Shown here one piece after another: positions 3,097 to 53,790 of a stretch of 64,000 nucleotides of DNA. Numbering within the stretch: position 1 is the stretch's first letter; each line of letters starts with the position of its first letter. The notes under the pieces are model-generated. The model was given only the letters and a program-made list of their open reading frames with translations, did not search any database and was not told the DNA's origin. The stretch comes from a virus. The position numbers and the translations under genes are program-made. The stretch is from the IMG/VR virus record IMGVR_UViG_3300033064_003894, positions 75,838 through 139,837 of that record; one strand, 5' to 3'.

Positions 3097-3440
3097 ATGC
3101 ATCTACTAGAGAGAGAGTGTTCGAGAGAGCATATTGGAGGTGTGAAATGTGTCATTCTCTTGGTAAGCCCTATAACCAATTAGAGATACACCATATCGTA
3201 ACCAAGGCAAGAGGTGTTGGGTGGACCTTCCTTAATCATGAGCTAAACCTATGTCTTCTATGTCACGGGTGTCACATGAATGTCCATAAGCAGGGGATAA
3301 AGCAGTGGCTATCTAAACGACCTCCAGACGTTTGCTATCAATGTGATCAGGTTCTGGTTCCGCTTGAAGACAGTCGTGGGGTTGGGTGCCAAGAATGTAA
3401 AGAGGTACTTTTTCAGACTGTTCATTCTTCTTTATTATAA
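3087..3440 (+). CDS. HNH endonuclease
   Basis: CEMC..LEIHHIV..NLCLLCHGCH; ATG at 3087 preferred over 3078. Confidence 0.85.
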   Translation: MPIDASTRERVFERAYWRCEMCHSLGKPYNQLEIHHIVTKARGVGWTFLNHELNLCLLCHGCHMNVHKQGIKQWLSKRPPDVCYQCDQVLVPLEDSRGVGCQECKEVLFQTVHSSLL

Positions 3441-4575
3441 ATCTTGTGATAGCTGCGAGTATTTTTGTGTTAGGATGTATGCCGCATAAATTTATTAAAT
3501 CAGGTATATATTTTGAAAATCTAGATACGCTGTGCACATCGGAAGAAAGGATATAAACAATTCGTCCAGAAACAACATTTGAGAATTCGAAAGAGTCTCC
3601 GCTGTATAAGTTATTTATCTCTCTTAGCGCCATAGCTCTTGTTTTATCTATATAAGCTTTAGTGCATTTTATTCTAACCGTAGTGTTTAATCCTAGCACT
3701 GGTTCTTTCCTATTTAGCTCTGACTTAAATATTCTTGTTTTCTTGCCGTTAACAACAAGTTTATACCTATATGAAAGTTTACATATTGAATTAATTAGTA
3801 TTTCTACAAAGTCATCGATGAACTTAAAGTCATTGTAGAAAATCTTGATGTAAATGTTATCAATGTATCGTATGTAATTTATTGAAAGCTTTTTTGGATA
3901 CTCAAACTTATTGTCAATTCTACGTAGACGATCAAAAAGTCGACTTTTAATAGAAGCTGAAATGTACTCTCCGGAAGTTAGTGAATATTGGGAGTGCATA
4001 GCCTTTGGACACGATGACTTCTTACTAATCTTCTCTCCATTTATTGTTATTTGAGTATCAGAAGTAGAAGCTTCTAGTCTAGACAGACAAGACAGTATTA
4101 TGCAGTCAAAGCCTTGAAGGTATATATTGCTAATGTCTTGAGACATAGCGCTGCCCTGTGAAAGAACTCTAACGTCGTTCCCTACAAAAACAAACGCATT
4201 GTCGACAAAAGTGATTAAATTTTTGTGTTTAGAGGCGAAGCAGTCATAAAAGATTGAGTGATAAAAATTTTTAAAGTCAAGTCCTATAAGTACACTTTTA
4301 TCTCCTTCATCAACCGGGCTTCGTTTTGTTATCAAAGACAAGACCAGAGCCTTCATATTTGTTCCACCAAAAGGATATCCAAAAACAGACTTCTTTAAAT
4401 TAACACTCGTGTTATGTAATGAGTCGGAGCCATCGAAGATAAATCCTCTAAGCGCCCACAGTTTTTCATAATGGTCGTTCGTTGTACCAAAGTCGTGAAC
4501 TAATCGGAAAGAGCTTTTATCTTTTTTTGGTATAAGAACGGCTCTAGGTAATACTCTTTTTGAGCCTTCTTGCAT
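3313..4575 (-). CDS. Reverse transcriptase-like protein with YIDN catalytic loop
   Basis: RT motifs in order: IPKKDKSSFRLV, SVFGY, LDFKNFYHSI, LSQGSAMSQDISNIYL..FD, YIRYIDNI, LVVNGKKTRI, PVLGL. Confidence 0.85.
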   Translation of the reverse strand: MQEGSKRVLPRAVLIPKKDKSSFRLVHDFGTTNDHYEKLWALRGFIFDGSDSLHNTSVNLKKSVFGYPFGGTNMKALVLSLITKRSPVDEGDKSVLIGLDFKNFYHSIFYDCFASKHKNLITFVDNAFVFVGNDVRVLSQGSAMSQDISNIYLQGFDCIILSCLSRLEASTSDTQITINGEKISKKSSCPKAMHSQYSLTSGEYISASIKSRLFDRLRRIDNKFEYPKKLSINYIRYIDNIYIKIFYNDFKFIDDFVEILINSICKLSYRYKLVVNGKKTRIFKSELNRKEPVLGLNTTVRIKCTKAYIDKTRAMALREINNLYSGDSFEFSNVVSGRIVYILSSDVHSVSRFSKYIPDLINLCGIHPNTKILAAITRFIIKKNEQSEKVPLYILGTQPHDCLQAEPEPDHIDSKRLEVV

Positions 4576-41675: not shown

Positions 41676-43709
41676 ATGGCAAGCAGACTAAATCAACCTG
41701 GAGTAGAAGTTCAACAACTTACAGACGAGCGTCGTCCAACCGTGTTTCGTCCAGTAATGGTGCCATGTATTTTTGGCATCCACAACAACATTCAGAAGAA
41801 TCTGGATCTTGTATATCACGCTGATGGAGCTGCAAATTCGGGCGTTGTAATAGCTTCCGGATTGTCAACCGTAACGTCTCAGATAATTAGTTCTTCTTCT
41901 TTGTCAGTATACGCTGAGACAACACGTGGGCTTGCACCGCTGACTATTACAACTCACTACACGGCCAGTTTTGATATAGAACTTGGTGTGACAAACCTTA
42001 TCACAATAAAGGATCCTATTGATATAACTAAGCAGCTAGTCTCTACAAATTCTTCGACATCGATAAACTCTCTATCTAGTGCAGGGACCAACTATGTAAT
42101 CATAACGGACACAGGAGCAGACTTCTCTCAGGCAGGAATAAAGCCTGGAGATTTAATCACGATTGATTTCGCAACATCTGTTAGAAATTCTAGCGGAGCA
42201 TTTACTGGGCAAGATCTAACTGTTGTTGAGGTGTCAGACAGCCAGAACCTTAAATCTGTGTGGAGTAACAACAATTCATCATGGGTAAGCGAATACAGCG
42301 TTTCATACGCTGCATGGACTCCGACTATGACAGATGTTAGCGGTCAGATACTTGTAAGTTATACGGGTAGGGTGATTAATGATGTAAATAAAATTGTAGA
42401 GATAATTAGTAATGAGGATGCTAGGAATCAGTTTGGTGTTCTTGAGCCTGAGAATCCTCTTGGATATCATGTATTGTCAGCTCTCTCAGCAACAGACAAG
42501 TCATTATATGCAATGCGTGTAGCTACAGATGACACAGCAGGATATGACTCAGCTCTTGACTCTATGAGGAACGAAGAAGACATTTACTTCGTAGTCCCAA
42601 CTACGCAGTCTTCAACGGTGGCTTCATTATGTGAGGTGCACGTTGATTACATGAGTTTGCCTGAGAATAAGGCTGAGCGGGTGGCGTTCATTAACAGGAC
42701 TGTTCCTGACTACGATGTAAAATTCAACCTTGACACTCCAATAGATATTTTGGAAGTTGGCCCCGCATCCACAGGACTGTCAATGAGCGACGCGGGATGG
42801 ACATCAGGACTGCCATTCATAGTACCAGGAGACATTTGGAGGCCTAATGAGACAGTGATACTTTCAAATGGATCAGTAGTTAACAATTCAGATGTAAGAT
42901 TGACTGTTATAGCAAAATCAGGAACAGTTGTTACTGTGTCCGGAGCAATAGCTTATTATAATGGTTTAGCTGCTCCTGCAACAACCGCCGTCGAAGGATT
43001 TTTTACAACCACAAACTACACCAAAGACAATAGAGCGAAGTATCTTTCAGCGCTTGGTGAGGCGTATGACAATAAGAGAATAATTAATGTTGTACCAGAC
43101 AACTGCAAGATGTTCGTTTCTAGGATTAAGCAAAAGGCTCCTACTTGGGAGCTTTATGCTGAGAATGCAGAAGAAACAGTAAATGGAACAAATATATGCG
43201 CATCGTTAGCTGCGTATGCTTCTGCTGTTGCACCATCCAAGCCTCTAACTAACGAAATAGTCCCAGGCATCACAGATCTAATTGGGTCAAATGACATTAT
43301 GACAAATGACCACTTAGACACTATTGCAGGAGGAGGAAACTGGATTCTTATTAGAACCAGAGGCGGTGGTATTTCAACAACGAGGCATCAACTAACGACA
43401 GCCGTCTCTGATGTGAACACAAGAGAATTCTCTGTGGTTAAGTCAATAGACTTCGCTGCTAAGACGTTTAGGGCTTATCTGAGGCCTCTTGTAGGAAAGA
43501 GCACCATAACCGACAATTTTATTAAGAAGGTTCTCAGGCCTGTCACATTCGCTGCTATGCATGCATTAATTGAAGGTGGGACAGTGTCCGGCAAGTCATC
43601 AGTCCTTAGCATTGTTCAAAACACTGACGATCCTACTAAAATAACGATTGAAGTTAAGATAGTTCCGCTGTACCCAGCTAACTACTTCGTAGTGAAAATT
43701 TACGTATAA
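41676..43709 (+). CDS. Contractile tail sheath protein
   Basis: PGVEV N-terminus, RHQLTT..REFSVVK..DF, PLYPANYFVVKI C-terminus. Confidence 0.85.
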   Translation: MASRLNQPGVEVQQLTDERRPTVFRPVMVPCIFGIHNNIQKNLDLVYHADGAANSGVVIASGLSTVTSQIISSSSLSVYAETTRGLAPLTITTHYTASFDIELGVTNLITIKDPIDITKQLVSTNSSTSINSLSSAGTNYVIITDTGADFSQAGIKPGDLITIDFATSVRNSSGAFTGQDLTVVEVSDSQNLKSVWSNNNSSWVSEYSVSYAAWTPTMTDVSGQILVSYTGRVINDVNKIVEIISNEDARNQFGVLEPENPLGYHVLSALSATDKSLYAMRVATDDTAGYDSALDSMRNEEDIYFVVPTTQSSTVASLCEVHVDYMSLPENKAERVAFINRTVPDYDVKFNLDTPIDILEVGPASTGLSMSDAGWTSGLPFIVPGDIWRPNETVILSNGSVVNNSDVRLTVIAKSGTVVTVSGAIAYYNGLAAPATTAVEGFFTTTNYTKDNRAKYLSALGEAYDNKRIINVVPDNCKMFVSRIKQKAPTWELYAENAEETVNGTNICASLAAYASAVAPSKPLTNEIVPGITDLIGSNDIMTNDHLDTIAGGGNWILIRTRGGGISTTRHQLTTAVSDVNTREFSVVKSIDFAAKTFRAYLRPLVGKSTITDNFIKKVLRPVTFAAMHALIEGGTVSGKSSVLSIVQNTDDPTKITIEVKIVPLYPANYFVVKIYV

Positions 43710-43714
43710 AAAAA

Positions 43715-44485
43715 ATGGCAACCTCCTCAGCATTCGACTTCGAGAACAACCAGGTTCAGCGCGAGCTTCTTGGCAGCAACTTTTTAAAGGGAGAGACCAC
43801 TATAATTGCTGCTGGTCCTCCGTTTCTTAACTTTATGGGAATAACTAACAATATTAGTCCTGGATCTGGAGGAGAATCAAGAAGAACAGACGTCCCTTCC
43901 CCAGGTCGACCATACTTCGGAGCGGCCGATCTTGGCGGTGTACCAGTATTTCCAATAGGCGTTATTGAGAATGCCAACATTGTCCAACAGAGGCAGCTGA
44001 GAAGAATACCTGAAATTGGAAGCAAGAGGTTCCACTTCGTGTCTGGAAGAACTGCTGGTCAAATAACTATATCTAGAGTAATGTTTCACGGGCCTAACCT
44101 ATTACGTGTATTGTATGCCTATATAAATCCAGATAGGTTTACTAATGCAAGCGGCTCAATTGGTGAGCTTCTTGGAAATAACGCTGATAGCCTATATTCT
44201 TCAGGCCTAGACAACGCAAAGATTCTATCTAATCCTGGTTACGCTGACTTCTTCGTAAACCTAGACTCTACTTTATTCGACTATCCATTCGGACTTATGT
44301 TCTATTTTGAAGACAACAAGAGAGAACCGTACGGCGCGTTCTACTGCGAAGAGGCGCACATCGCGGCTCACCAGATGAATATTGGAGCGTCAACTACCGT
44401 TATAGCTGAGGCCGTTACAATTCAGTATGACCAGCTCGTGCCTATTGATCTTGGCAACAACAGCCTATTTGGAAGAAGTAGCTAA
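43715..44485 (+). CDS. Tail tube protein
   Basis: PIGVIEN..QQRQLRRIPEIGS, VIAEAVTIQY; follows the sheath. Confidence 0.75.
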   Translation: MATSSAFDFENNQVQRELLGSNFLKGETTIIAAGPPFLNFMGITNNISPGSGGESRRTDVPSPGRPYFGAADLGGVPVFPIGVIENANIVQQRQLRRIPEIGSKRFHFVSGRTAGQITISRVMFHGPNLLRVLYAYINPDRFTNASGSIGELLGNNADSLYSSGLDNAKILSNPGYADFFVNLDSTLFDYPFGLMFYFEDNKREPYGAFYCEEAHIAAHQMNIGASTTVIAEAVTIQYDQLVPIDLGNNSLFGRSS

Positions 44486-44489
44486 TTCT

Positions 44490-44918
44490 CTATTCAGAGA
44501 TAGACCATAGTCTAACTCTCTTAATTGTATGAAGCTTTTTCCTTGCTTCTATCATGGCTCCCTGGTTTACAGTAATGCTAAACCTTGTTTGAAGTCCAGA
44601 GTGTATGAAGTTAGCAACACGAGTTTTGTTTGGGTCATCATTGCATACAACCCTAAAGATTATATTCTTGATGGGGAAATCATTACAACAAAACGATTTA
44701 GACTCTGAACCGATTAGACCTCTTTCGTAAGCCTCAATATCAGAGATTGAATGAAATATACTAGATCTTACCCTGTTAGGTCTTTTTAAAAAAATTGATA
44801 TAGTAAGTATATCTCCGCTACATTCGCAGTAGCGGGACATTAAATCTGAAGTTTCAATCGACCCTACGAACAGGTCGTTTTGTTTTTCTTTTAGCAGTTC
44901 TTGGTTTGGAAACATCAA
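44490..44918 (-). CDS. Hypothetical Cys-containing protein, last gene of the Ubl operon
   Basis: Overlaps the E1 3' end on the same strand. Confidence 0.45.
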   Translation of the reverse strand: MMFPNQELLKEKQNDLFVGSIETSDLMSRYCECSGDILTISIFLKRPNRVRSSIFHSISDIEAYERGLIGSESKSFCCNDFPIKNIIFRVVCNDDPNKTRVANFIHSGLQTRFSITVNQGAMIEARKKLHTIKRVRLWSISE

Positions 44919-45627
44919 GAGATTCTACTATATTTGAGGACTCTGCTTCAACAACTTTTATGTGAATCATTTGCTCCATGTCATAAAACTGCTCGAACGG
45001 ATTCTTTTTGCCTAGAATCGCATTACGAACGCCTGATCCAATAATACCTGCTATAGTGAAAACAGTAAAGACAATTGCCTTTTCTGCACACGGAAGAGGA
45101 GTAACTGGACGATTAAGGCTTTCTATGTATTTAGATGCGAGAGTTGGTCTATCTTCTGAACTCATCATGAAGAAGGAAGCTCCAGTAGAGCCCATTCTGG
45201 CATCAATAAGATAAGATGATTTTGATCCAGACCGAGAGAGAAAGACTGATCGTCTTGAATCTATTGAATCTAGAGCAAACACTAGAATGTCAGTTTCTCT
45301 ATCCATGGACTGGTTTGCAAATTCAACTACCGGATTAATGATTAGTTCGTTTCCGCAGAAATATTTTAACTTTTCAGCAAGAGCTTCTGACTTTTGTTTA
45401 CCTATGTCACTTTCAGTAAAGAACTGACTACCAAGGTTAGCCCTTTCAACGGTGTCCATATCTATAAGAGTTAGGTTGCTAATTCCCATCTTTGCAAGAC
45501 AGAAGGCGGCATTGCTGCCTATTCCTCCGCATCCGACTACGGTTACGCTCCTGTCTTTGTAAAGCTCAGGATCAAATAATCCAAACTGTCTAGAGAATTT
45601 TTCTCTATTTACTTCTAGATCTTCCAT
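44854..45627 (-). CDS. ThiF/E1-like ubiquitin-activating enzyme
   Basis: FSRQ, VVGCGGIGS, IDMDTVERANLGSQ, K, ALDS..R, IDARMG, candidate catalytic Cys PLPCAEK. Confidence 0.9.
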   Translation of the reverse strand: MEDLEVNREKFSRQFGLFDPELYKDRSVTVVGCGGIGSNAAFCLAKMGISNLTLIDMDTVERANLGSQFFTESDIGKQKSEALAEKLKYFCGNELIINPVVEFANQSMDRETDILVFALDSIDSRRSVFLSRSGSKSSYLIDARMGSTGASFFMMSSEDRPTLASKYIESLNRPVTPLPCAEKAIVFTVFTIAGIIGSGVRNAILGKKNPFEQFYDMEQMIHIKVVEAESSNIVESLDVSKPRTAKRKTKRPVRRVD

Positions 45628-45628
45628 T

Positions 45629-47380
45629 TTAACTTATCGACTTTGCTAGTTTAACTGGTTCATGCCTAACTATGCTTATAAGAGAGCTATTCTTTAATCC
45701 TATAGTCTTTATATATTTCAGAAGAGTATCTTCTGTCGAGCATTCATCCTCTACATCAGACAAGGGTATACCATTTTTCATTAAAGGAAGTAAGGAATAG
45801 GAAAAAGCGGCGATGCCTGTCAAATCTAATGATGACGCAGTTCCTCTAATTATAGACTCTATCGACTTTATAGTCTGAAGCATTATTGGCTCACTAATTA
45901 CCTCTATTCGTTTAGATGCCGATGTTTTAGACATAAGTATCAAAACTTCTTCTGTGAACATTCCACATAGTGCGAATTTATATATTAATCTTTCTTCCTC
46001 AAGCGTAAAATTACCAATGCCTCTAATAGATTGGAAGGACACTTTTAATTTATCAAGCAGATGGTTGTCTGAGTCATACAAAGACCGAACTAAGTACTTA
46101 ACAGAAATACTATCTTCTTGCTGCTTCTCTGTATCTCCAACAGAGAGGTATGAAGGAACAAAGATCTTTTTTGTTGAGTACAGAGCTTCTGTGCCAAACG
46201 ATGCCGCAATGTCATACATCGAGAATGGAGCAGATACACGCGAAAAGGCATCCTTGTAGAACTCTTTTTCAACATTTGACTTTATGTTCTTAATATTACA
46301 TGCACGGCCAGAATCTTTTGCTAAGTGTATATTTTCAGATATACTCTTTAATAGGTCATTTCCAGCAGAAGTTGCTTGTATTGATGGGAGTGCGGACAAA
46401 GGAGAGTCCATAATGTACAGCATTTCTTTATCTGGATTTGCCTGAAACATTGCCACAATCATTGAGGCTAAGTATTTGCCAACTGTTCCACTTTCAACAA
46501 ACAGCATTCTCTCAAATGGAACATCTCCAGAGTAATAATTCCTAAGCGCCTCGACTAGTGCGTCTTTGCCGCTGCATTTCAGACCGTCTTTGTGTATAAC
46601 AAACGATACAAGTTGCTGTAATGTGAACGTTTCGTAATTGTTTCTTAATTCATATGCCCGTGTCCGAAGTGACGGTAAAATGTACGTATCTTGATCGAAA
46701 CCTTTCGCAACTTTAGGTTTTTCGAAATATCCTGGAAATAAATCTAAGTCCTCGTCTTGGGTTGGATTTACCCACGGAGTGGGAGGAGCGTAGCTCTTTT
46801 TTGTTACTTTCTCTTTTATCTCTTCTACCGTCTGATCGTCTAATTCGTCGATAATAGCGATAACAGGACACTCAATTGCGATCCTTATAGGACTAAATAG
46901 GTCTATTCTGCCAATTATCTCTTGCCTCTTGTTGAATACGCATGACAGAAAGAAACTTGAGTCTTCTCCAAGAGCTATAATTCCTTTTTCGTCTACGTCT
47001 GAGATGAACACTGGCATGTTTACGTGACTATGTCCCCAGTACCTTAGCCTAGGGTATATTGTCTTAGAGAACTCTTCAAATTTCCCTTCTTTTGTAAAAG
47101 ACTCAATAAAGTCTGCAAACATTTCTTTTGTTACATTTACACTAGCACCGTCCACAAGTTGTGGCGGGATATAGAGCTTATCAACGACAAAAGTTTTCTT
47201 ATCTTCTAATACATCTGCAGTTCCTAGCCAAGCTATTTCTGTGTCTACATGTTTAGTAATTGCCTGCTGCTTAATAAGCAAAGAGTTGCTCATTCTTATT
47301 GAGTAGCCCATTGAGGCCCCATCTTTTAAGCTTATGATAAACTTTTCATTTGACTTTATTTCAGTCTTCATTCTCGCCAC
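45629..47380 (-). CDS. JAB/MPN+ metallopeptidase with long C-terminal extension
   Basis: TEIAWLG (catalytic Glu), IPPQ, WGHSHVNMPVFISDVD (HxH-x7-S-x2-D). Confidence 0.85.
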   Translation of the reverse strand: MARMKTEIKSNEKFIISLKDGASMGYSIRMSNSLLIKQQAITKHVDTEIAWLGTADVLEDKKTFVVDKLYIPPQLVDGASVNVTKEMFADFIESFTKEGKFEEFSKTIYPRLRYWGHSHVNMPVFISDVDEKGIIALGEDSSFFLSCVFNKRQEIIGRIDLFSPIRIAIECPVIAIIDELDDQTVEEIKEKVTKKSYAPPTPWVNPTQDEDLDLFPGYFEKPKVAKGFDQDTYILPSLRTRAYELRNNYETFTLQQLVSFVIHKDGLKCSGKDALVEALRNYYSGDVPFERMLFVESGTVGKYLASMIVAMFQANPDKEMLYIMDSPLSALPSIQATSAGNDLLKSISENIHLAKDSGRACNIKNIKSNVEKEFYKDAFSRVSAPFSMYDIAASFGTEALYSTKKIFVPSYLSVGDTEKQQEDSISVKYLVRSLYDSDNHLLDKLKVSFQSIRGIGNFTLEEERLIYKFALCGMFTEEVLILMSKTSASKRIEVISEPIMLQTIKSIESIIRGTASSLDLTGIAAFSYSLLPLMKNGIPLSDVEDECSTEDTLLKYIKTIGLKNSSLISIVRHEPVKLAKSIS

Positions 47381-47437
47381 AAATCGATGACAAAAAAATT
47401 AATTATATTTGTTTTAAATTTTCTAGCCGATTAACGG

Positions 47438-47650
47438 CTACAGACCAGCGTCGAAGTTAGGGGCCAACATCACGTGGGACCCCGGCTGGAGCTGTACGCT
47501 CTTGTCTGCGCGAGTCCCGTTAAGGAGAACGCTGTAGTTTACCTTGGTGCTGCCAGAAGCGGAGATTGCATCCTGCACGGTCATGCCGGGCTGGAACGGA
47601 ACTCTCACTTGATCTTGGCCAGGCACCTGTACGATGATTTCATTTGCCAT
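47438..47650 (-). CDS. Ubiquitin-like (beta-grasp) protein ending DAG-L
   Basis: GMTVQDAI..VLLNG....LQPGSHVML...DAGL; AAGGA Shine-Dalgarno. Confidence 0.85.
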   Translation of the reverse strand: MANEIIVQVPGQDQVRVPFQPGMTVQDAISASGSTKVNYSVLLNGTRADKSVQLQPGSHVMLAPNFDAGL

Positions 47651-47743
47651 GTTGTATTTCCTTCTTGTAAGTTTGTTGGGATTACTGAAATATTAAATAG
47701 GACTAACATGTGATATTATTCCGTACAAAGTGAAAATTTTTAG

Positions 47744-49642
47744 TTAGAATCTTGGCTCAACGTCTCTAATTTCAAAGACGCCCAGGTTTACGTCTATCGG
47801 ATCAGCTATAACTTGTTGATGTCTGTTTTCTACTTCATGCCAAGCATAGCCAACATAGTTGGCATCGCCGACTTGAGCATCGCCGACTTGAGCATCGCCG
47901 ACTTGAGCATCGACGACTTGAGCCTGCTGATGCATCTCTATGAACCTAGCCAGAATAGGTTCATTAATATTCACGTTGAGTGGTTTTGGATACTGTTTGT
48001 TATATACATCCTTTAAGTCTTTTTCTAATTTCACAAGATCTGCATGGTTAAATAAGGATGACATCAAATCATTAATAGCAAATATTATCTCTGGCTCTTT
48101 CACCCCGTAGAAGAATGAATACTTAAGTGAAGCAGCAATCTCGGTTGTGTTGTCAATCCCTTCATCTGAGCAAAAGTCTGAAACATAATTAATTGCGCCA
48201 ACAAGATTTTTAACATTAAAGAGAATACCGTTTGAGACAAACTTACCCATAGAGATTAGCTTACTAGACCTTATTTTTACAATGTCATTTTTAAGAGCGA
48301 CAACCTTATTAGAAAAAGCGGCACTTGACAAAGTTTTACACCACAGTGAGCAAATTGTTTCGACAGAATAATATTGTTCAGGGTTGATATAGCCCGAATC
48401 TTTGTTGTAAGTGTTCATGACCTCTGACAATAAGCTCATCATAGAAAAGATGTCACCTGTTGCGCAATATGACTTAAGCGCTCCTTCGTACGATCCTAAG
48501 CAAACTTCGTTATCCACACTTACGTGTGGATGTCTAATAGTCTCCCTAAGCCCGTGATCAGGAATCTCAGCTCGTTCACCACATGAAGGCCCGGAAATCA
48601 AATCCGCATATGCACAAACTCTATTCGACTCAAGACTATATACGACCATTATATCGTAAAAACCGACACTAGTAGGAGATACTTGAACACTTATCATATC
48701 TGTTTGTGACGAGACTTTTTTTATAGCACACTTGATGGTTAATCTAAATTTAACCTGGTATGCCTGAGACAAAGAGATGAATTTTGAAATGTCACGATTG
48801 AGTAAATCAGTTACTGAGCATCTTTTGCTAATATAATTGTCAGAAGAATGATCTCTATTTGAGAGTCCACTACTAAATGGCGAGCATATAACATTTTTTT
48901 TGCTTTCATTTATTAGATATCCATTAGAGATTATAGAGAATTCTTCTAACTTACAGTTATTTGTATGTGAAAAATTATTACCTTTATATATAGAAGAGTC
49001 TACGCCGTCAATTATAGCTGCAGCCAATGAAGCACGCACTATCGCTCCATTTATATTTGCCACACTATGAGCATACGTTTGTTTATTATATCTAGAAATG
49101 TTCAGGTTATGAATAGCTGAACTGTTAGAAGAAATCAAATATGGTCTAGGAATAATATTAAAGCATTCCTTACTTACTATTACGCCATCGTACATCTTAA
49201 GTAGACGAATAAAACTCCTAATCTCCTCGGATGACACATAAAGAACAATGTTTGTTAAATATATCCCCTCTATTGACGAAACGAACTTCATAGTTATTGG
49301 TATTTTCTTTATTAAATAAAAATCATAAAACGCGTCATTAGATCTTTCAAATGGGAAAACTGTAATATCAAACGAATTCATTGGACCTGCACCAGATTTT
49401 ATAGCAGAAGGAATTAGTGCATTGATGGTTAATGTTAATACACTTTTATATGAACCAACAGACCGCCTTGTCTTTATATTAACTGTCTTTATTGGCCTGC
49501 CATAGAGAATAGTTACTCGTTTACTTTTCAATGGCAAGGCATCGTTCTTTTTTGGAGACCAATGCAGTTCAGAAGTATTAACCACTGCGTGAAATAGTTT
49601 GTTAATATATGAAAGGTTGGTACGGCATGTAATTAATGCCAA
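47744..49642 (-). CDS. Large protein with prokaryotic E2 (UBC-like) domain
   Basis: RHPHVSVDNEVCLG...LLSEVMNTYN.DS.Y. Confidence 0.75.
   Translation of the reverse strand: MALITCRTNLSYINKLFHAVVNTSELHWSPKKNDALPLKSKRVTILYGRPIKTVNIKTRRSVGSYKSVLTLTINALIPSAIKSGAGPMNSFDITVFPFERSNDAFYDFYLIKKIPITMKFVSSIEGIYLTNIVLYVSSEEIRSFIRLLKMYDGVIVSKECFNIIPRPYLISSNSSAIHNLNISRYNKQTYAHSVANINGAIVRASLAAAIIDGVDSSIYKGNNFSHTNNCKLEEFSIISNGYLINESKKNVICSPFSSGLSNRDHSSDNYISKRCSVTDLLNRDISKFISLSQAYQVKFRLTIKCAIKKVSSQTDMISVQVSPTSVGFYDIMVVYSLESNRVCAYADLISGPSCGERAEIPDHGLRETIRHPHVSVDNEVCLGSYEGALKSYCATGDIFSMMSLLSEVMNTYNKDSGYINPEQYYSVETICSLWCKTLSSAAFSNKVVALKNDIVKIRSSKLISMGKFVSNGILFNVKNLVGAINYVSDFCSDEGIDNTTEIAASLKYSFFYGVKEPEIIFAINDLMSSLFNHADLVKLEKDLKDVYNKQYPKPLNVNINEPILARFIEMHQQAQVVDAQVGDAQVGDAQVGDANYVGYAWHEVENRHQQVIADPIDVNLGVFEIRDVEPRF
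47862..47921 (-). repeat. 15-bp tandem repeat x4 encoding QVGDA
   Basis: GCATCGCCGACTTGA x3 + GCATCGACGACTTGA (+ strand). Confidence 0.9.
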
Positions 49643-49698: not shown

Positions 49699-50544
49699 TT
49701 ATGGCTTTACTCCTAACTCTCCCATGCAGGTCGTGTAAAATTCACACATTGTCTTTTTACATAAGAAGGAGTTTGTATTATATGCGAATATCTCTGGGTT
49801 TGATATGCCGGCCTTAATGAAGCTAATTGCCCAGTTTATTTTTTTCTCTACAAAGCCAAGGTGAGCAGCAGTTACAGGCTCTTCTATTTGTATTACCTCA
49901 GGATCTCCTCGCTTCTTAAGAAGAGCAATATCATACCTTGTAGACTTACTGTTTATACCATTCTTGTTCGCTAAATAGGCATACGAAGTATTCTGCCATC
50001 TAGACTCTATATTTCCCCATCTTTTCCAGGCGGTCTTGTTGTCTATAACAACATTGGATGTGTCAATTGTGTCTATATATCCATGGAATGGGATCTCTAG
50101 AGAATCGTCAGAAAGATGCGCCTGGACGTGTGACGGCTCTACGCTAGGGAAGACTTCTCTGTTAAACAAGATAATTCCTTTATGACAGCTTGATTTTGCA
50201 GTGTCAATCTGTTCTCCCTTAGAGCCCTCATCATCAAATATGATTTCTCCACTTTGCTCATTTATATACGCTTCTGCGTAATCAGTTAGAACAGATACAG
50301 GCAAATCCTTTCCTTCTCTCTTTTTTGACCGGTAGTTAAAATCTAAAGTTTTATCGAAGGCTGACCCTACAAACATTTTAAAGCTATCCCTTGTTATGGG
50401 GCGTTGCTGTAAAATATATCTCTTGTAGAATAGCTGAGGGCAAATCTCAAGAGAGGAGATTGCCGAATACGACAACCTCCTCACAGGATACAAACTACCT
50501 TTTAGAGAGTTTCGTTCTTCAAATTCATTAGAAGGGTGGGTCAT
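49699..50544 (-). CDS. PD-(D/E)xK Cas4/RecB-like exonuclease
   Basis: LSYSAI...CP, GYIDTI..VIDNKT, Q..SY, C-terminal C..C.F...C. Confidence 0.8.
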   Translation of the reverse strand: MTHPSNEFEERNSLKGSLYPVRRLSYSAISSLEICPQLFYKRYILQQRPITRDSFKMFVGSAFDKTLDFNYRSKKREGKDLPVSVLTDYAEAYINEQSGEIIFDDEGSKGEQIDTAKSSCHKGIILFNREVFPSVEPSHVQAHLSDDSLEIPFHGYIDTIDTSNVVIDNKTAWKRWGNIESRWQNTSYAYLANKNGINSKSTRYDIALLKKRGDPEVIQIEEPVTAAHLGFVEKKINWAISFIKAGISNPEIFAYNTNSFLCKKTMCEFYTTCMGELGVKP

Positions 50545-51067
50545 TGGCTGGGCGATAGGTGCCCTCTCCGTAAACTGGTCTACGTTGACCCTCTCCGTAA
50601 GCGGGACTACGTTGATTCTGCGGAGGATCATTATATCTAGGCTGAGATAGCTGAGCTTGTCCCTTATTCTGACTCTGATCTCTTGGATTAAGGTCTTCAA
50701 GCTGCCCAATTGCTCCAGGCGGGTGATGTTTCACATTATAAAACACTCCTCCGTCGTTACGTTGAGAGCCATGAGACACCTCAAGGTCAAGGATCTTGCC
50801 TTTCAGCTGATCAGTTTCAAGACCTCCATCCATGCCAATAGCGTCGCAAAGCTCGCGAAGCTTCCATCCGAATTTCTTAGTATTGTATGAGCAGAATAAT
50901 GATCCTGCGTTTGTTCTATAACCTATCCTTACAGAGTAGCTTGCATCTGGTTTAACAGAGGCATTGCAATAGAATATCTCTGCTCTAAAGTTACCTTTCG
51001 GGTGTATGGGGTCTTTATCCCCTTTATTTTGTTGTTGTCCATCAGGACTATTCAGCGGAATTTTCAT
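50528..51067 (-). CDS. Single-stranded DNA-binding protein (DUF669-like)
   Basis: PKGNF OB-fold start, LRELCDAIG, disordered tail ending NDPPF. Confidence 0.65.
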   Translation of the reverse strand: MKIPLNSPDGQQQNKGDKDPIHPKGNFRAEIFYCNASVKPDASYSVRIGYRTNAGSLFCSYNTKKFGWKLRELCDAIGMDGGLETDQLKGKILDLEVSHGSQRNDGGVFYNVKHHPPGAIGQLEDLNPRDQSQNKGQAQLSQPRYNDPPQNQRSPAYGEGQRRPVYGEGTYRPANDPPF

Positions 51068-51842
51068 CTTTTCTTGTTGTTCGTTTTTTTGCTTTTGAAA
51101 GCATCTTTTGTAAGCTGTCTATGGCAAGTTTAATTGTTGCCTCTCTAGCAGCATACGGGATAGAGTTTATCATATAGGAGGCTTTAGTCATAATTGCAGC
51201 GACTATATAGTGCGGCAATATGGTTGTGTCCGTTGTGGATATTTTAAGGTTTTCAACATTACCACATTGAGGGCAAATCTTGTCTGCAAACTTAGAAATA
51301 TTTCTAATATTAGACTGACCCATCTTAATATCTTGTATAGTCCTCTTTAGGTCTTCCTTTGTTATCCCAGCAGGATCCCTAGTTTTTACTGCTCTTGTGA
51401 TGATTTCTTCTGGTATCCCAAGAGTGTCAGACAAGACGCCGTAGAATTTCTCTTCATATTTTGTAGCACTAAACATTCGTAGCCAGATCCTCTCAAGATT
51501 TGAAACTGTTGACGCTATATTTATAGATCCAAAATCTGTTGAGTCGACCTTGTCTTTTATAATTCGCTTTATTTCTATAATACATCGATCTTCTTCTCCT
51601 CCGATTATACATTCTATGCTTGAGTGCCCAAGTCGCTTATAAGCAGAAATTATGTTTGAGTCTTTAAAGCATAAAAAATAGTTTTCCATTCTGAATACAA
51701 TTGGTTTAATTACCATTCGATTCTTCTGTATATATTCTATAGTTTTGCCTATGTTTGGTCCGTAGCCACGGACTTGTCTTATTAAGTCTAGGCTTATTTT
51801 GCCAATACCGTTCGGATGACTAAAAAGAGGTTGCTCTGGCAC
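51048..51842 (-). CDS. Hypothetical protein, possibly ParB-like N-terminus
   Basis: ISLDLI..KPIV..AYKRLG...IECII; CPQC. Confidence 0.4.
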   Translation of the reverse strand: MPEQPLFSHPNGIGKISLDLIRQVRGYGPNIGKTIEYIQKNRMVIKPIVFRMENYFLCFKDSNIISAYKRLGHSSIECIIGGEEDRCIIEIKRIIKDKVDSTDFGSINIASTVSNLERIWLRMFSATKYEEKFYGVLSDTLGIPEEIITRAVKTRDPAGITKEDLKRTIQDIKMGQSNIRNISKFADKICPQCGNVENLKISTTDTTILPHYIVAAIMTKASYMINSIPYAAREATIKLAIDSLQKMLSKAKKRTTRKDENSAE

Positions 51843-53790
51843 GAACGTCCTCCTGAGGTGTTTTGAATTGCATAGTTTCTGTATCGAATACCAAGGTTAC
51901 GTCAATGTTAGCCTTTCCTCTTCTATTTTTCAAGACACGAATTACAAATTTATCTTCTCCTGTGCTTACGCCAGGTCTGAAACTTCCAAGTATGATGTCA
52001 GCAGACTCTTCAGTTTGCCCACTATCTCTTCCAGAGCTTATCTCAACAATTGCCTCAGAGTTCTCTACAGATCTATTTACCTGGTGAAGATAGAAAACTG
52101 CCATTTCATGACGCTTTGCTATAGTTTTAAGTCCCTTTGCAAGTCCACTTATATGCTCATAGCTATTAGCATTCTTTTGCGCAACACGGTTAAGGTAGTC
52201 GATAAATACAACCTTAACACCATACAATTCTTTTGCCTTATGAACGTACTGCTCAATCTTATCTATATCTATGCTGTCTTCGTCTACTATGAATACATTT
52301 TTAAAGGCGTCGCCAGTTTTGTCTGTAAGTCCTTTAGAGATCTCGTCTTTAGTCTTCTTTGCATTCATTAAATCAACAACGATTCTTTCAAGCGCAACTG
52401 AGGTTTTATTTGAGGCCATCTGGAATCCTCTCTCTGCAATATCGGCTCCTGTCATCTCAAGAGACATAAACAAAGACGGAATGCCCATCTTGCTTAGATT
52501 ATTCATACAGTGCATAGCAAAGGCCGTTTTACCTCCTCCAGCTTTAGCCATGTACTGAAGTACGTGCCCCATATGTAACTTTACATATTGATCAAGCTCA
52601 GGTATTCCAAGAGTTATTCCTCCACTTTCAGAATAGAAACGATCTACATACTCCTTAAATATAGACTCCTTAGTCTTAAAAGAAGAGTGTGATATAGCAT
52701 CGTCCTCCTTTTTACCCTTTACAAGCTTGCTGTACAAAAAGCACTTATTGCTGCACCTTGAAGCAAGTATGTCATCATAGCATCCGAAGTCCATGTTATT
52801 TGAGAAGGCACTCTTAACTGATTTACGCACTTCCCAATCCTGCATAGGAGGATCATTCTTTAAGTTCCACGACAGAAGAATTCCTTCTACGGCATCTATA
52901 GAAAGTCCCTGTTTTCTGTAATGGTCAGACAAACGTATTGAGACCTTGTCTCTTTCTCCAGAACCAACACCATGCATTAATCTAGCGATGCATATTTTCC
53001 CGTTCTTAATGGCGTCCTCTCCAGACCTTGAGATTGGAAATTCAATCCTATCCATAGGCTCTTCTTCAAACGCCATCATTGTAGCTTCAAACATAATTGT
53101 TTTAAGCTTCTCATTAGGCCCGTCTACACTTAATACGTACAGAGGCTCTTTAGGAAGTTGCGCTCTTTCATATATATGATTTATATCTCCAAAGACATCT
53201 CTAGGCTGCACTTGAACTTTATATAGTCCAGACTTTTTATGTTTAGAGTTTGGTAAGCGTATAAGCCTAGTCTTATCGTAGATCAAGTCTATACCAGCCT
53301 TTTCTCCTTTAGCTAAAGGACATTCTGCATATTTAGCTAATAATGACACAAACCTTTTTATGGTACGGTTTGCATCCTGACCTGAAGCTATACCTATCAA
53401 ATCATCTGGAATATATATATGGAACCCCTTTGCTCCGGAGAAAAACAGATAAAATGACTTCTCTTCAATCTCGCAGTCCTCTATAAGGTAGCTAACCATA
53501 TCCGAAGCGACCTTAGCTGCTTCTTCTATGTCCCCTGTAGGAGAGTCTATATCTATGATTACATATGGAGCATATGTCGGTCCAGAGAAGCCAGATACAG
53601 ATTTATTTGTTGAGATGTGATCTTTGAATGAGTCATCAAAGGCAAACATTCCCATATAGGCGTCTTCATGTAAAAGTCTTCCACTGAATGATCCCCAGAA
53701 TGTTGAGTGATAGTCAACGCAGTTATTTCTATTAGCTACGCCATTTTTGGCGAAATCCGTCCACTTAAACTTTTCTGAATCGTTGCTCAT
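51820..53790 (-). CDS. Primase-helicase (AEP primase + PriCT + DnaB-like SF4 helicase)
   Basis: IDID, FSGAKGFH, RLPNSKH; AKAGGGKT, SLEM, FIDYL, HQVNR, SGQTEESAD, KNRRG. Confidence 0.9.
   Translation of the reverse strand: MSNDSEKFKWTDFAKNGVANRNNCVDYHSTFWGSFSGRLLHEDAYMGMFAFDDSFKDHISTNKSVSGFSGPTYAPYVIIDIDSPTGDIEEAAKVASDMVSYLIEDCEIEEKSFYLFFSGAKGFHIYIPDDLIGIASGQDANRTIKRFVSLLAKYAECPLAKGEKAGIDLIYDKTRLIRLPNSKHKKSGLYKVQVQPRDVFGDINHIYERAQLPKEPLYVLSVDGPNEKLKTIMFEATMMAFEEEPMDRIEFPISRSGEDAIKNGKICIARLMHGVGSGERDKVSIRLSDHYRKQGLSIDAVEGILLSWNLKNDPPMQDWEVRKSVKSAFSNNMDFGCYDDILASRCSNKCFLYSKLVKGKKEDDAISHSSFKTKESIFKEYVDRFYSESGGITLGIPELDQYVKLHMGHVLQYMAKAGGGKTAFAMHCMNNLSKMGIPSLFMSLEMTGADIAERGFQMASNKTSVALERIVVDLMNAKKTKDEISKGLTDKTGDAFKNVFIVDEDSIDIDKIEQYVHKAKELYGVKVVFIDYLNRVAQKNANSYEHISGLAKGLKTIAKRHEMAVFYLHQVNRSVENSEAIVEISSGRDSGQTEESADIILGSFRPGVSTGEDKFVIRVLKNRRGKANIDVTLVFDTETMQFKTPQEDVRARATSF

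What the first reader, a model, noticed from the sequence alone, without database searches (positions are those of the whole stretch)
44490..49642. Complete phage-encoded ubiquitin-like conjugation operon (E2 - Ubl - JAB - E1 - small ORF)
Seen: five co-oriented genes at the end of the early/replication block. They encode an E2-like domain (HPHV-x5-CLG), a 70-aa beta-grasp protein, a JAB peptidase with intact E...HSH-x7-S-x2-D, and a ThiF/E1 with GxGGxG and a free Cys (PLPC). Established: E1+E2+JAB+Ubl is the core of bacterial protein-conjugation systems such as the Bil anti-phage systems; ThiS/MoaD sulfur relay needs no E2. Inference: this phage ubiquitylates host or rival-phage proteins, or jams host Bil/CBASS conjugation, which would be the reverse of the known host-defence direction. 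No thiamine or molybdopterin genes lie nearby.
Basis: partly seen in the sequence, partly recalled or inferred. Interest (0 to 1): 0.92.

Follow-up and report, generated by a model that had tools for sequence, protein, structure and literature searches.

The report
Phage-encoded ubiquitin-like protein-tagging operon
An uncultured 140-kb phage carries its own complete ubiquitin-style tagging kit (tag, activating enzyme, carrier enzyme, trimming protease). The kit belongs to a family found almost only in uncultured phages, whereas such kits have been studied in bacteria only as defences against phages.

Summary
Window 44490-49642 (minus strand) encodes four proteins of a ubiquitin-like (Ubl) conjugation cascade, all with intact catalytic motifs.

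- **E2:** 632 aa, with an HPH-x7-C core.
- **Ubl:** 70 aa, SAMP2/ThiS-like, ending Gly-Leu.
- **JAB:** 583 aa, a JAMM peptidase (E…HSH-x7-S-x2-D).
- **E1:** 257 aa, ThiF-type, with one family-invariant Cys.
- **Fifth ORF:** 142 aa, an orphan with no relatives found.

Pfam recognises only the E1. The other three were established through a family I assembled from 80 IMG/VR phage contigs.

- 53 of 80 loci carry all four genes, in several gene orders.
- An AlphaFold model of a family E2 (pLDDT 83) matches E2/UBC structures almost exclusively.
- The JAB profile hits RPN11 and the Ubl profile hits SAMP2.
- The tags end in a conserved Gly plus a 1-3 residue variable tail, which implies JAB trimming.

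The family is nearly confined to uncultured phages: 1 of 50,697 GenBank phage records and 16 MAG contigs among 185,579 species genomes. It usually sits in the replication module. No sulfur-relay partner is present in the phage record.

The biochemical reading is well supported. The target and the biological role (host takeover, anti-defence or exclusion of rival phages) are unknown. I found no paper describing this. This scan has flagged comparable phage cassettes on other DNA.

The parts
47744..49642 (-). E2-like protein, 632 aa (TTG start as called). The UBC-like core is roughly residues 290-430 (window ~48350-48780), with H371-P-H373 and the putative catalytic C381 (codon 48500-48502). It is flanked by orphan N-terminal (~1-290) and C-terminal (~430-632) regions.
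   Evidence: ORF and motif. Family HMM hit on residues 368-415: 28-30 bits. AF2 model of family member L051 with pLDDT 83. Foldseek top hits are almost all E2 enzymes. VIA Z 7-8 over 110-125 residues, top 50 all E2/UEV. The unbiased search of 48,161 chains again puts E2/UEV/RWD on top. An exhaustive phmmer search finds only 2 non-self relatives.
47438..47650 (-). Pre-Ubl, 70 aa. A beta-grasp tag ending ...F-D-A-G69-L70. G69 (codon 47444-47446) is the predicted mature C-terminus. An AAGGA ribosome-binding site lies upstream.
   Evidence: Family of ~70-aa proteins in 65 of 80 loci, ending KG-N or KG-X(1-3). Profile hits SAMP2 5lda_B at 3.8e-5 over the full length. Pfam Ub-Mut7C in 17 of 29 members and ThiS in 11 of 29. 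A near relative (91% identical) ends DAG-LN.
45629..47380 (-). JAB/JAMM metallopeptidase, 583 aa. The true start is probably the ATG at 47371. The catalytic domain is residues ~1-200 (window ~46780-47380) with E48, H117, H119, S127 and D130. Residues 205-583 are an orphan extension.
   Evidence: Alignment A4 shows invariant E, WGHSHVNM, S and D. Profile hits RPN11 at 1.5e-4, plus BRCC36, JAMM1 and CSN5. 20 of 35 members hit Prok-JAB. The extension has no relatives. Start inferred from the relative L081 and the Atlas record.
44854..45627 (-). Minimal E1 (ThiF-type adenylating enzyme), 257 aa. It has R13, G32xGGxG37, D56/D58, K79, D120 and the single family-invariant C180 (codon 45088-45090). 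It starts 1 nt after the JAB stop.
   Evidence: Pfam ThiF 2e-27. PDB hits to Uba1, UBA7, MoeB and MccB. Below every NCBIfam equivalog cut-off. Conservation analysis of 64 family E1s, with Cys 100% conserved and no CxxC pairs.
44490..44918 (-). Orphan 142-aa ORF. A TTG start overlaps the E1 3' end by 65 nt; an in-frame ATG at about 44840 lies after the E1 stop. It is probably a gene, but its link to the system is unproven.
   Evidence: No hit in Pfam, PADLOC, PHROGs, NCBIfam or IMG/VR. The codon-usage score is in frame but at the low end of the phage's genes.

Best explanation
This is a phage-encoded, self-contained ubiquitin-like protein conjugation cascade.

Proposed steps (all inferred from motifs and family patterns, not shown):
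1. The JAMM peptidase removes Leu70 from the 70-aa pre-tag and exposes Gly69.
2. The minimal ThiF-type E1 adenylates Gly69 and takes the tag onto its single invariant Cys180.
3. The tag passes to Cys381 of the UBC-fold E2 (HPH-x7-C).
4. The E2 transfers the tag to lysines of target proteins. Its large orphan N- and C-terminal regions may act as the substrate-recognition (E3-like) part.
5. The JAB enzyme can probably also reverse the modification.

The cassette sits with the replication and early-middle genes. It is therefore most likely expressed during genome replication, to modify host or phage proteins to the phage's benefit. The target is unknown.
For: - All four enzymes or tags carry intact catalytic signatures.
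- E1: ThiF domain, with every ATP/Mg-binding residue and one Cys invariant across 64 family members.
- E2: the family model (pLDDT 83) matches E2/UBC structures almost exclusively by Foldseek and by two VIA searches. HPH and Cys are nearly invariant at the canonical spacing, and invariant in the smaller set. The window protein matches the family profile over the HPH-Cys-helix region.
- JAB: invariant JAMM motif, with profile hits to RPN11, BRCC36 and JAMM1.
- Ubl: the profile hits SAMP2. A conserved Gly is followed by a 1-3 residue tail that differs even between 91%-identical relatives, L versus LN.
- The four genes stay together through several gene orders: 53 of 80 loci have all four, and 77 of 80 pair JAB with E1.
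- JAB pre-processing of a Ubl tail is experimentally established for BilC/BilA (PMC10557695).
- No sulfur-relay partners occur in the phage record.
Against: - No biochemistry exists for any member.
- The fold evidence comes from a family member, not the window protein. The window's own single-sequence model failed (pLDDT 32), and its N-terminal beta-sheet is aligned only weakly.
- VIA Z of 7-8 is in the range the tool flags as possibly 'a common arrangement'.
- The E1 is ThiF/MoeB-sized. It lacks a CYS domain and a UFD, so how it would hand over to an E2 is unclear.
- Its best named hits are sulfur-carrier adenylyltransferases, and the tag is closest to the dual-function SAMP2/ThiS group.
- The catalytic triad residue is His rather than the canonical Asn (HPH versus HPN).
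- The target and the benefit to the phage are entirely unknown.
Confidence: 0.74

Rival explanations
1. Counter-defence by interference. The cassette exists to subvert host Ubl-based immunity (Bil, Bub, type II CBASS). The phage JAB might strip host conjugates, or the phage E1/E2 might capture or mis-route the host tag. It would not be running a tagging pathway with targets of its own.
For: Bacterial Ubl systems are anti-phage. The same genome is noted to carry other anti-defence genes, such as Tad1 (an unchecked note). The cassette sits among early and middle genes.
Against: The phages almost always encode their own tag (65 of 80 loci), some in 2-3 paralogues or as di-Ubl forms. A decoy or deconjugase strategy would not need that. 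The family is spread across very diverse phages, whereas Bil and Bub are sparse in bacteria. There is no sequence affinity to the CBASS or Bil components beyond the generic Rossmann core.
Confidence: 0.1
2. A defence system carried by the phage for superinfection exclusion. It would work like Bil and tag structural proteins of competing phages that infect the same cell.
For: The only demonstrated role of a four-gene Ubl/E1/E2/JAB operon in prokaryotes is tagging a phage tail fibre (10.1101/2023.09.04.556158). Phages often carry defence genes.
Against: The family is almost absent from bacterial genomes. Only 16 MAG contigs were found, most of them short, against 89 motif-matched stretches (82 confirmed) in viral contigs. 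It sits inside replication modules rather than moron or defence hot spots. This is unlike a horizontally shuffled defence island.
Confidence: 0.08
3. A sulfur-carrier or other acyl-adenylate chemistry of the ThiS/MoaD/CysO/QbsE type. E1 would make a Ubl thiocarboxylate for thiolation of a nucleic acid or metabolite, JAB would only mature or release the product, and the UBC-like protein would be a scaffold.
For: The Ubl profile is closest to SAMP2, ThiS and MoaD. The E1 is ThiF/MoeB-sized and its best NCBIfam hits are ThiF and MoeB. JAB plus Ubl plus E1 sulfur systems exist (PMC1779556).
Against: The E2 domain keeps HPH and Cys nearly invariant (invariant in the smaller set) and travels with the other genes. 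No rhodanese, cysteine desulfurase, PP-loop thiolase, MoaE or ThiG is present in the record. The E1 has no rhodanese domain and scores far below the ThiF and MoeB cut-offs (77.6 versus 159 bits).
Confidence: 0.06
4. A virion-assembly accessory like lambda tail-assembly proteins I and K (Ubl plus JAB), suggested by the adjacent tail sheath and tube genes.
For: The cassette ends 4 nt from the stop codon of the ORF that follows the tail sheath gene, which I take to be the tail tube (no family hit). Ubl plus JAB tail-assembly pairs are known (PMC1779556).
Against: It is on the opposite strand, co-oriented with the exonuclease and primase-helicase genes. In other phages it lies beside DNA polymerase, DnaB-like helicase and Sak4. 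It has an E1 and an E2, which the lambda system lacks.
Confidence: 0.02

Closest known systems
BilABCD (bacterial ISG15-like) anti-phage ubiquitination operons (PMC10557695; 10.1101/2023.09.04.556158)
   Same: It has four separate genes: Ubl, E2, JAB deubiquitinase and E1. The tag carries a conserved C-terminal Gly, often with a short tail that the JAB enzyme removes. Some members of the phage family have di-Ubl tags like BilA.
   Different: It is encoded by phages rather than bacterial defence islands. The E1 is 220-283 aa with no room for the mobile CYS domain described for BilD. The tag is SAMP2/ThiS-like and single-domain in this phage. The E2 has HPH instead of HPN, plus a family-specific D-x-AG motif. 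No sequence-level match to the PADLOC defence models was found beyond the E1 Rossmann core.
Archaeal SAMP / UbaA / JAMM sampylation
   Same: The tag profile's best solved relative is SAMP2, and the JAB profile also touches its partner JAMM1 (same entry 5lda). The E1 is a small ThiF-type enzyme.
   Different: Sampylation has no E2, whereas here a UBC-fold E2 is conserved. UbaA doubles as a sulfur-relay enzyme, and no sulfur-relay partners are present here.
Iyer-Burroughs-Aravind 2006 class 6d operons (Ubl, JAB, E1-like, E2-like, alpha-helical protein) on bacterial mobile elements (PMC1779556)
   Same: Stand-alone Ubl, JAB, E1 and E2 genes on a mobile replicon, predicted to conjugate and deconjugate a tag.
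   Different: The 6d E2 lacks the classical His before the Cys, whereas the phage E2 keeps it at the canonical spacing. No conserved alpha-helical fifth protein was found. That paper's only phage-borne Ubl/JAB case is the tail-assembly I/K pair, with no E1 or E2.
Type II CBASS Cap2/Cap3
   Same: E1 and E2 chemistry plus a JAB. The E1 N-terminal Rossmann part hits Cap2 models (3.5e-17).
   Different: Cap2 is an E1-E2 fusion that conjugates the CD-NTase itself. Here E1 and E2 are separate genes and a dedicated Ubl is present.

Membership tests
Ubl conjugation cascade (generic E1-E2-DUB-Ubl) | Beta-grasp tag with a conserved C-terminal Gly | tested here: met
   The profile of 29 family tags hits SAMP2 at 3.8e-5 over the full length. 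Gly is conserved in at least 90% of members and is followed by a 1-3 residue tail. The window tag ends AG-L.
Ubl conjugation cascade (generic E1-E2-DUB-Ubl) | E1 adenylation domain with intact ATP/Mg site | tested here: met
   Pfam ThiF 2e-27. R13, GxGGxG, D56/D58, K79, D120 and R125 are conserved at 98-100% across 64 family E1s and the window.
Ubl conjugation cascade (generic E1-E2-DUB-Ubl) | E1 catalytic cysteine that forms the thioester | tested here: inconclusive
   There is one 100%-conserved Cys (C180) after the adenylation core. Its position in a crossover loop was not checked on a structure. The same position could serve a ThiF-type acyl persulfide.
Ubl conjugation cascade (generic E1-E2-DUB-Ubl) | E2 with UBC fold and HPx...Cys active site | tested here: met
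   The family-member model has pLDDT 83. E2/UEV/RWD structures dominate three structure searches, with Z up to 8.0 and 110-125 aligned residues. HPH-x7-C is invariant. Caveat: the window protein itself is tied in by a 28-30 bit profile hit and synteny, not by its own model.
Ubl conjugation cascade (generic E1-E2-DUB-Ubl) | JAMM/MPN+ isopeptidase motif E...HxH-x7-S-x2-D | tested here: met
   The motif is invariant in 35 aligned sequences including the window. The profile hits RPN11 at 1.5e-4.
Ubl conjugation cascade (generic E1-E2-DUB-Ubl) | Thioester intermediates and isopeptide conjugates actually form | not testable with these tools
   This needs biochemistry.
BilABCD | E1 (BilD) with an inserted mobile CYS domain carrying the catalytic Cys (PMC10557695 abstract) | tested here: not met
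   The window E1 is 257 aa and the 64 family E1s are 220-283 aa. The ThiF profile covers residues 24-215, which leaves no room for an inserted domain.
BilABCD | Resides in bacterial genomes as an anti-phage defence operon | tested here: not met
   The window is a 139.8-kb virus record. With the strict JAB motif, the family gives 89 matching stretches (82 confirmed) in viral contigs and 16 MAG contigs in 185,579 species genomes.
ThiS/MoaD-type sulfur-carrier systems | Partner sulfur-transfer or acceptor enzymes, and no E2 | tested here: not met
   Rhodanese, Aminotran_5, ATP_bind_3, MoaE and ThiG are all absent from the record, while positive controls ring in 11-14 of 14 genomes. An E2 is present. 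The E1 scores 77.6 bits against the 159-bit ThiF cut-off. The record is estimated to be 79% complete.
Type II CBASS (Cap2/Cap3) | E1-E2 fusion protein acting on a neighbouring CD-NTase | tested here: not met
   E1 and E2 are separate genes with the Ubl and JAB genes between them. The PADLOC Cap2 models match only E1 residues ~24-130. The presence of a CD-NTase was not searched for explicitly.
Iyer 2006 class 6d operon | E2 lacking the classical upstream His, plus a conserved alpha-helical fifth protein (PMC1779556) | tested here: not met
   The classical His is present at the canonical spacing. Clustering of neighbours finds no fifth family shared across clades.

The most novel reading that the evidence does not exclude
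Uncultured tailed phages of many lineages carry a phage-restricted family of complete E1-E2-DUB-Ubl systems. They use it offensively, tagging host or their own proteins during replication. That would be ubiquitin-like signalling deployed by prokaryotic viruses rather than against them. Its minimal E1/E2 pair retains the eukaryote-type HPx-x7-Cys active site.
Probability: 0.45. Interest if true: 0.9.

Novelty: new variant of a known kind. Interest (0 to 1): 0.72.

Why it matters
Ubiquitin-like conjugation in bacteria has so far been characterised as host immunity (Bil, Bub, type II CBASS). A conserved family that is almost exclusive to phages and has all four parts would show that viruses of prokaryotes run their own tagging pathway, as eukaryotic viruses manipulate ubiquitin.

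- It offers a very small E1 (about 230-260 aa) paired with a canonical-motif E2. This is useful for asking how E1-to-E2 transfer works without CYS and UFD domains, and for the evolutionary origin of the cascade.
- The four genes can be synthesised and tested in E. coli, so the question is directly approachable.
- No member is in a cultured phage: 1 unannotated record among 50,697 GenBank phage records. That explains why it has escaped study.

Tried and rejected
- **Direct searches on the window proteins.** Pfam, PADLOC, PHROGs, NCBIfam and PDB sequence searches found nothing for the 632-aa, 583-aa and 142-aa proteins.
- **Exhaustive phmmer of the 632-aa protein.** The search against 1.84 billion representatives gave only two fragment relatives.
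- **Single-sequence AF2 of the 632-aa protein.** It failed with pLDDT 32. This used one of two folding jobs, so the window E2 domain, JAB and Ubl could not be folded themselves.
- **E2 family profile.** The profile against PDB sequences gave no hit. Pfam scans of 31 members gave no consistent family. The word-indexed homologue search with the family alignment returned only two proteins.
- **ESM Atlas.** It gave only a weak lead: viral clusters, one with Prok-E2_D in 11% of members.
- **DNA-level search against GenBank phages.** No match.
- **JAB C-terminal extension.** No relatives and no usable Atlas hit.
- **Small ORF.** No relatives in IMG/VR.
- **Retron link.** Other phages in this scan show a retron joined to a Ubl cassette. 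Here the genome's reverse transcriptase (window 3313-4575) is 40 kb away, and no homologue of it lies in any of the 80 loci. I found no such link here.
- **Promoter and terminator scans.** Counts were at chance level, and the GGBATAA word is not enriched.
- **MccB-type chemistry on a C-terminal Asn.** I considered this because most family tags end G-N. I rejected it because the tail varies (N, NN, NL, NK, A, L, LN) while the Gly is fixed.


Full report
**Setting.** The window is the last 64 kb of a single 139,837-bp virus record (CheckV completeness about 79%). The finding lies on the minus strand. On one side is the tail sheath gene (41676-43709, PHROG tail sheath) followed by a 256-aa ORF (43715-44485). 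That ORF has no family hit, and its position after the sheath gene suggests a tail tube. Both are on the plus strand and converge on the cassette. On the other side is a minus-strand replication block: a PD-(D/E)XK exonuclease at 49699-50709, and further on a 656-aa ORF at 51820-53790 that I read as a primase-helicase (not scanned against the family libraries). Nothing similar at the DNA level exists among 50,697 GenBank phage records. The sheath protein is only about 25% identical to those of large myoviruses.

**Observation.** The five ORFs and the quoted motifs are there.
- The only correction is that the E2 motif is HPH-x7-C (HPHV-x6-CLG, not x5). That is exactly the spacing of the canonical E2 HPN-x7-C, which I recall from UbcH5-type enzymes.
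- JAB and E1 are separated by 1 nt.
- The Ubl gene has an AAGGA ribosome-binding site.
- Each of the four families occurs once in the genome.

**What single-sequence tools see.** Only the E1 is recognised: Pfam ThiF 2e-27, PDB relatives Uba1, UBA7, MoeB and MccB, and the Rossmann part of CBASS Cap2 models. It falls far below every curated NCBIfam cut-off, for example 77.6 bits against 159 for ThiF. It is therefore a ThiF-superfamily enzyme of no named type. The 70-aa protein gives a sub-threshold Ub-Mut7C hit. The 632-aa, 583-aa and 142-aa proteins give nothing. An exhaustive phmmer search of the 632-aa protein against 1.84 billion representatives finds only two fragments.

**A phage family emerges.**
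- Searching IMG/VR with the JAB protein returned 80 loci, all sharing the motif WGHSHVNM.
- In 77 of 80 loci a ThiF-type E1 lies beside the JAB gene.
- Nearly every locus also has a neighbour with an invariant H-P-H ... C-x-G motif and, about 35 residues later, D-x-A-G.
- 65 of 80 loci have a roughly 70-aa protein related to the window's tag.
- All four genes are detected in 53 of 80 loci. Many of the rest are truncated contigs.
- The genes occur in several orders: E2-JAB-E1-Ubl (24 loci), Ubl-E1-JAB-E2 (16), Ubl-E2-JAB-E1 (7) and others. Retention through rearrangement argues for a functional unit.
- Other neighbours are lineage-specific, and no fifth gene is shared across clades.
- The window's 632-aa protein matches the family's HPH-C profile over residues 368-415 (28-30 bits) and aligns through the preceding beta-hairpin and the two following helices.
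- A short metagenomic contig (L081) from a close relative keeps the window's order E2-Ubl-JAB.

**E2.**
- A single-sequence model of the window protein failed (pLDDT 32).
- I then modelled L051, a 269-aa family member and the only one that the window protein hits directly, with a 55-sequence alignment. The model has mean pLDDT 83, with the domain above 90.
- Foldseek against the PDB lists E2 ubiquitin-conjugating enzymes in nearly all of its top 48 rows (best E 0.011, probability 0.97).
- VIA realignment gives Z 7.0-8.0, rmsd 3.4-4.5 Å and 110-127 aligned residues, covering essentially the whole 140-150-residue UBC domain. All 50 rows are E2 or UEV.
- An independent all-against-48,161-chains search again ranks E2, UEV and RWD domains first (Z up to 7.6). 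It includes the bacterial Bub complex 9eav at Z 5.7. Unrelated coiled coils appear only below, matching the N-terminal helix.
- The tool warns that Z below 8 alone can be a common arrangement. The uniformity of the hit list, the full-domain coverage and the invariant HPH-x7-C at the canonical place together make a catalytically competent E2 the clear reading.
- Differences from classical E2s are His in place of the HPN Asn, the family-specific D-x-AG motif and a long N-terminal helix.
- In this phage the core is embedded between orphan regions of about 290 and about 200 residues. These regions have normal phage codon usage.

**JAB.**
- Thirty-five aligned sequences, including the window, have invariant E48, W115-G-H-S-H-V-N-M, S127 and D130.
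- The profile hits RPN11 over the full domain (1.5e-4), then BRCC36, archaeal JAMM1 and CSN5.
- 20 of 35 members hit Pfam Prok-JAB.
- Most family members are 212-353 aa. The window enzyme carries an extra orphan C-terminal part of about 380 residues.
- Its real start is probably the ATG three codons in.

**Ubl.**
- The family profile hits Pyrococcus SAMP2 end to end (3.8e-5), then RnfH, Haloferax SAMP2, MoaD and ThiS.
- 17 of 29 members hit Ub-Mut7C and 11 of 29 hit ThiS.
- Some relatives are tandem di-Ubl proteins (ThiS, two stretches, above the Pfam cut-off).
- The tags end in a conserved Gly followed by a short variable tail. Most are KG-N, with KG-NN, -NL, -NK, -NS and -A also seen.
- The window has AG-L. 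Its 91%-identical relative has AG-LN.
- A fixed Gly with a variable tail is what is expected if the tail is removed before activation. This has been shown experimentally for BilC acting on BilA (PMC10557695).

**E1.**
- Across 64 distinct family E1s (220-283 aa) plus the window, the arginine finger, GxGxxG, two Asp, Asn, Gln, Lys, the Mg-binding Asp and two Arg are 98-100% conserved.
- Exactly one Cys (C180 in the window) is 100% conserved.
- There are no paired CxxC zinc motifs and no rhodanese domain.

**Distribution and context.**
- With the strict JAB motif, the viral collection gave 89 matching stretches, of which 82 were confirmed.
- The 185,579-species genome collection gave 16 hits, all on MAG contigs. 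Most are short, and one lies within a 1.2-Mb Saccharibacteria contig.
- GenBank phages gave a single unannotated faecal 'Bacteriophage sp.' record.
- The family is therefore essentially restricted to uncultured phages.
- In other clades the cassette is flanked by DNA polymerase, DnaB-like helicase and Sak4-like annealing protein. This matches its position here next to the exonuclease and primase-helicase block.
- The phage record contains no rhodanese, cysteine desulfurase, PP-loop thiolase, MoaE or ThiG, and positive controls worked.

**Mechanism.**
- Shown computationally: four families with intact active sites, kept together on phage genomes.
- Inferred: JAB trims Leu70, E1 adenylates Gly69 and forms a thioester at C180, the tag is transferred to E2 C381 and then to target lysines, and JAB reverses the modification.
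- The orphan extensions on E2 and JAB, which are unusual within the family, are candidates for target recognition.
- The target and the pay-off are unknown. I regard the biochemical reading as likely (about 0.74).
- Within that reading, the role is open. An offensive or host-takeover role is somewhat more likely than superinfection exclusion, because of the phage-restricted distribution and the replication-module location.

**Comparison with known systems.**
- It works like Bil (Ubl, E2, JAB and E1, with tail trimming) but fails Bil membership on the E1 architecture and on genomic habitat.
- Its tag and JAB resemble the archaeal SAMP2/JAMM1 pair, but sampylation has no E2.
- It differs from the 2006 class 6d operons by retaining the classical His.
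- It differs from CBASS Cap2 by having separate E1 and E2 genes and a dedicated tag.

**Literature.** In the searchable literature I found no description of a phage-encoded E1/E2/JAB/Ubl set.
- The 2006 survey mentions phages only for the lambda and T1 tail-assembly Ubl/JAB pair.
- Asgard-virus E1-like genes have been reported without the other parts.
- The Bil papers do not mention phage copies.
- Other searches found nothing relevant.
- Subscription-only papers are not covered.

**Earlier notes of this scan.** The scan has flagged comparable phage Ubl cassettes on other genomes. Some are joined to retrons. This genome also has a retron-like reverse transcriptase at window 3313-4575, but it is 40 kb away. 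No homologue of it occurs in the 80 loci, so I see no such coupling here.

**Verdict.** The 'complete conjugation operon' reading is supported. The 'attacks the host or jams Bil/CBASS' reading is untested. The fifth ORF is unsupported. I class this as a new, phage-borne variant of a known kind of system. It is of high interest to the phage-defence and ubiquitin-evolution fields, and it can be tested directly with synthetic genes.

Noticed in passing
window 47843-47920 (minus strand; residues ~575-600 of the 632-aa protein): There is a short tandem peptide repeat, (A/D)QVGD about three times, near the C-terminus of the E2-like protein. It lies in a region with no homologues. A 163-aa stand-alone-looking fragment (P0002, contig L081) is 47% identical to residues 450-552.
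   Followed up: partly
L074:9655-10761, L032:5513-6445, L033:3851-4696: In one clade of the family, the gene after E1 encodes a 280-370-aa protein with a MIB_HERC2-like segment. The L074 hit scores 4.7e-8 and 33.3 bits, just under the 33.5-bit cut-off. This domain is otherwise known from eukaryotic E3 ligases, so the protein could be an adaptor or E3-like partner.
   Followed up: no
L036:10091-14005, L043, L062 (1305-1319 aa); L076:2759-7831 (1690 aa): In some phages the HPH-Cys E2 domain is embedded near the C-terminal part of giant 1300-1690-aa proteins instead of a 270-650-aa protein.
   Followed up: no
L018 (three tag genes at 3286-3504, 3516-3770 and 4021-4290); L011 (two); L027, L044, L050 (two E2 paralogues each): Several phages have duplicated tags or duplicated E2s within one cassette. 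This hints at more than one tagging specificity.
   Followed up: no
L005:9496-9906, L044:9435-9863, L048:9815-10258, L069:1347-1772: Tags of 137-148 aa are tandem di-Ubl proteins. L048 matches ThiS in two stretches, above the Pfam cut-off. This parallels the BilA/ISG15 architecture.
   Followed up: partly
window 3313-4575 (minus strand): This is a 420-aa reverse transcriptase (weak RVT_1 hit), already noted by the scan as retron-like. It is unlinked to the Ubl cassette in this genome, although other phages in the scan join the two.
   Followed up: partly
window 47441-47650: The tag gene has a much lower phage-codon-usage score (0.05) than its neighbours (0.21-0.25). Its composition is atypical despite clear homology.
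   Followed up: no
L092 (contig CAYYWQ010000001.1, 1.21 Mb, Saccharibacteria MAG, ~1,070,038-1,086,523): This is the only family hit that lies inside a long bacterial contig. It may be a prophage or a chromosomal copy in a CPR bacterium.
   Followed up: no
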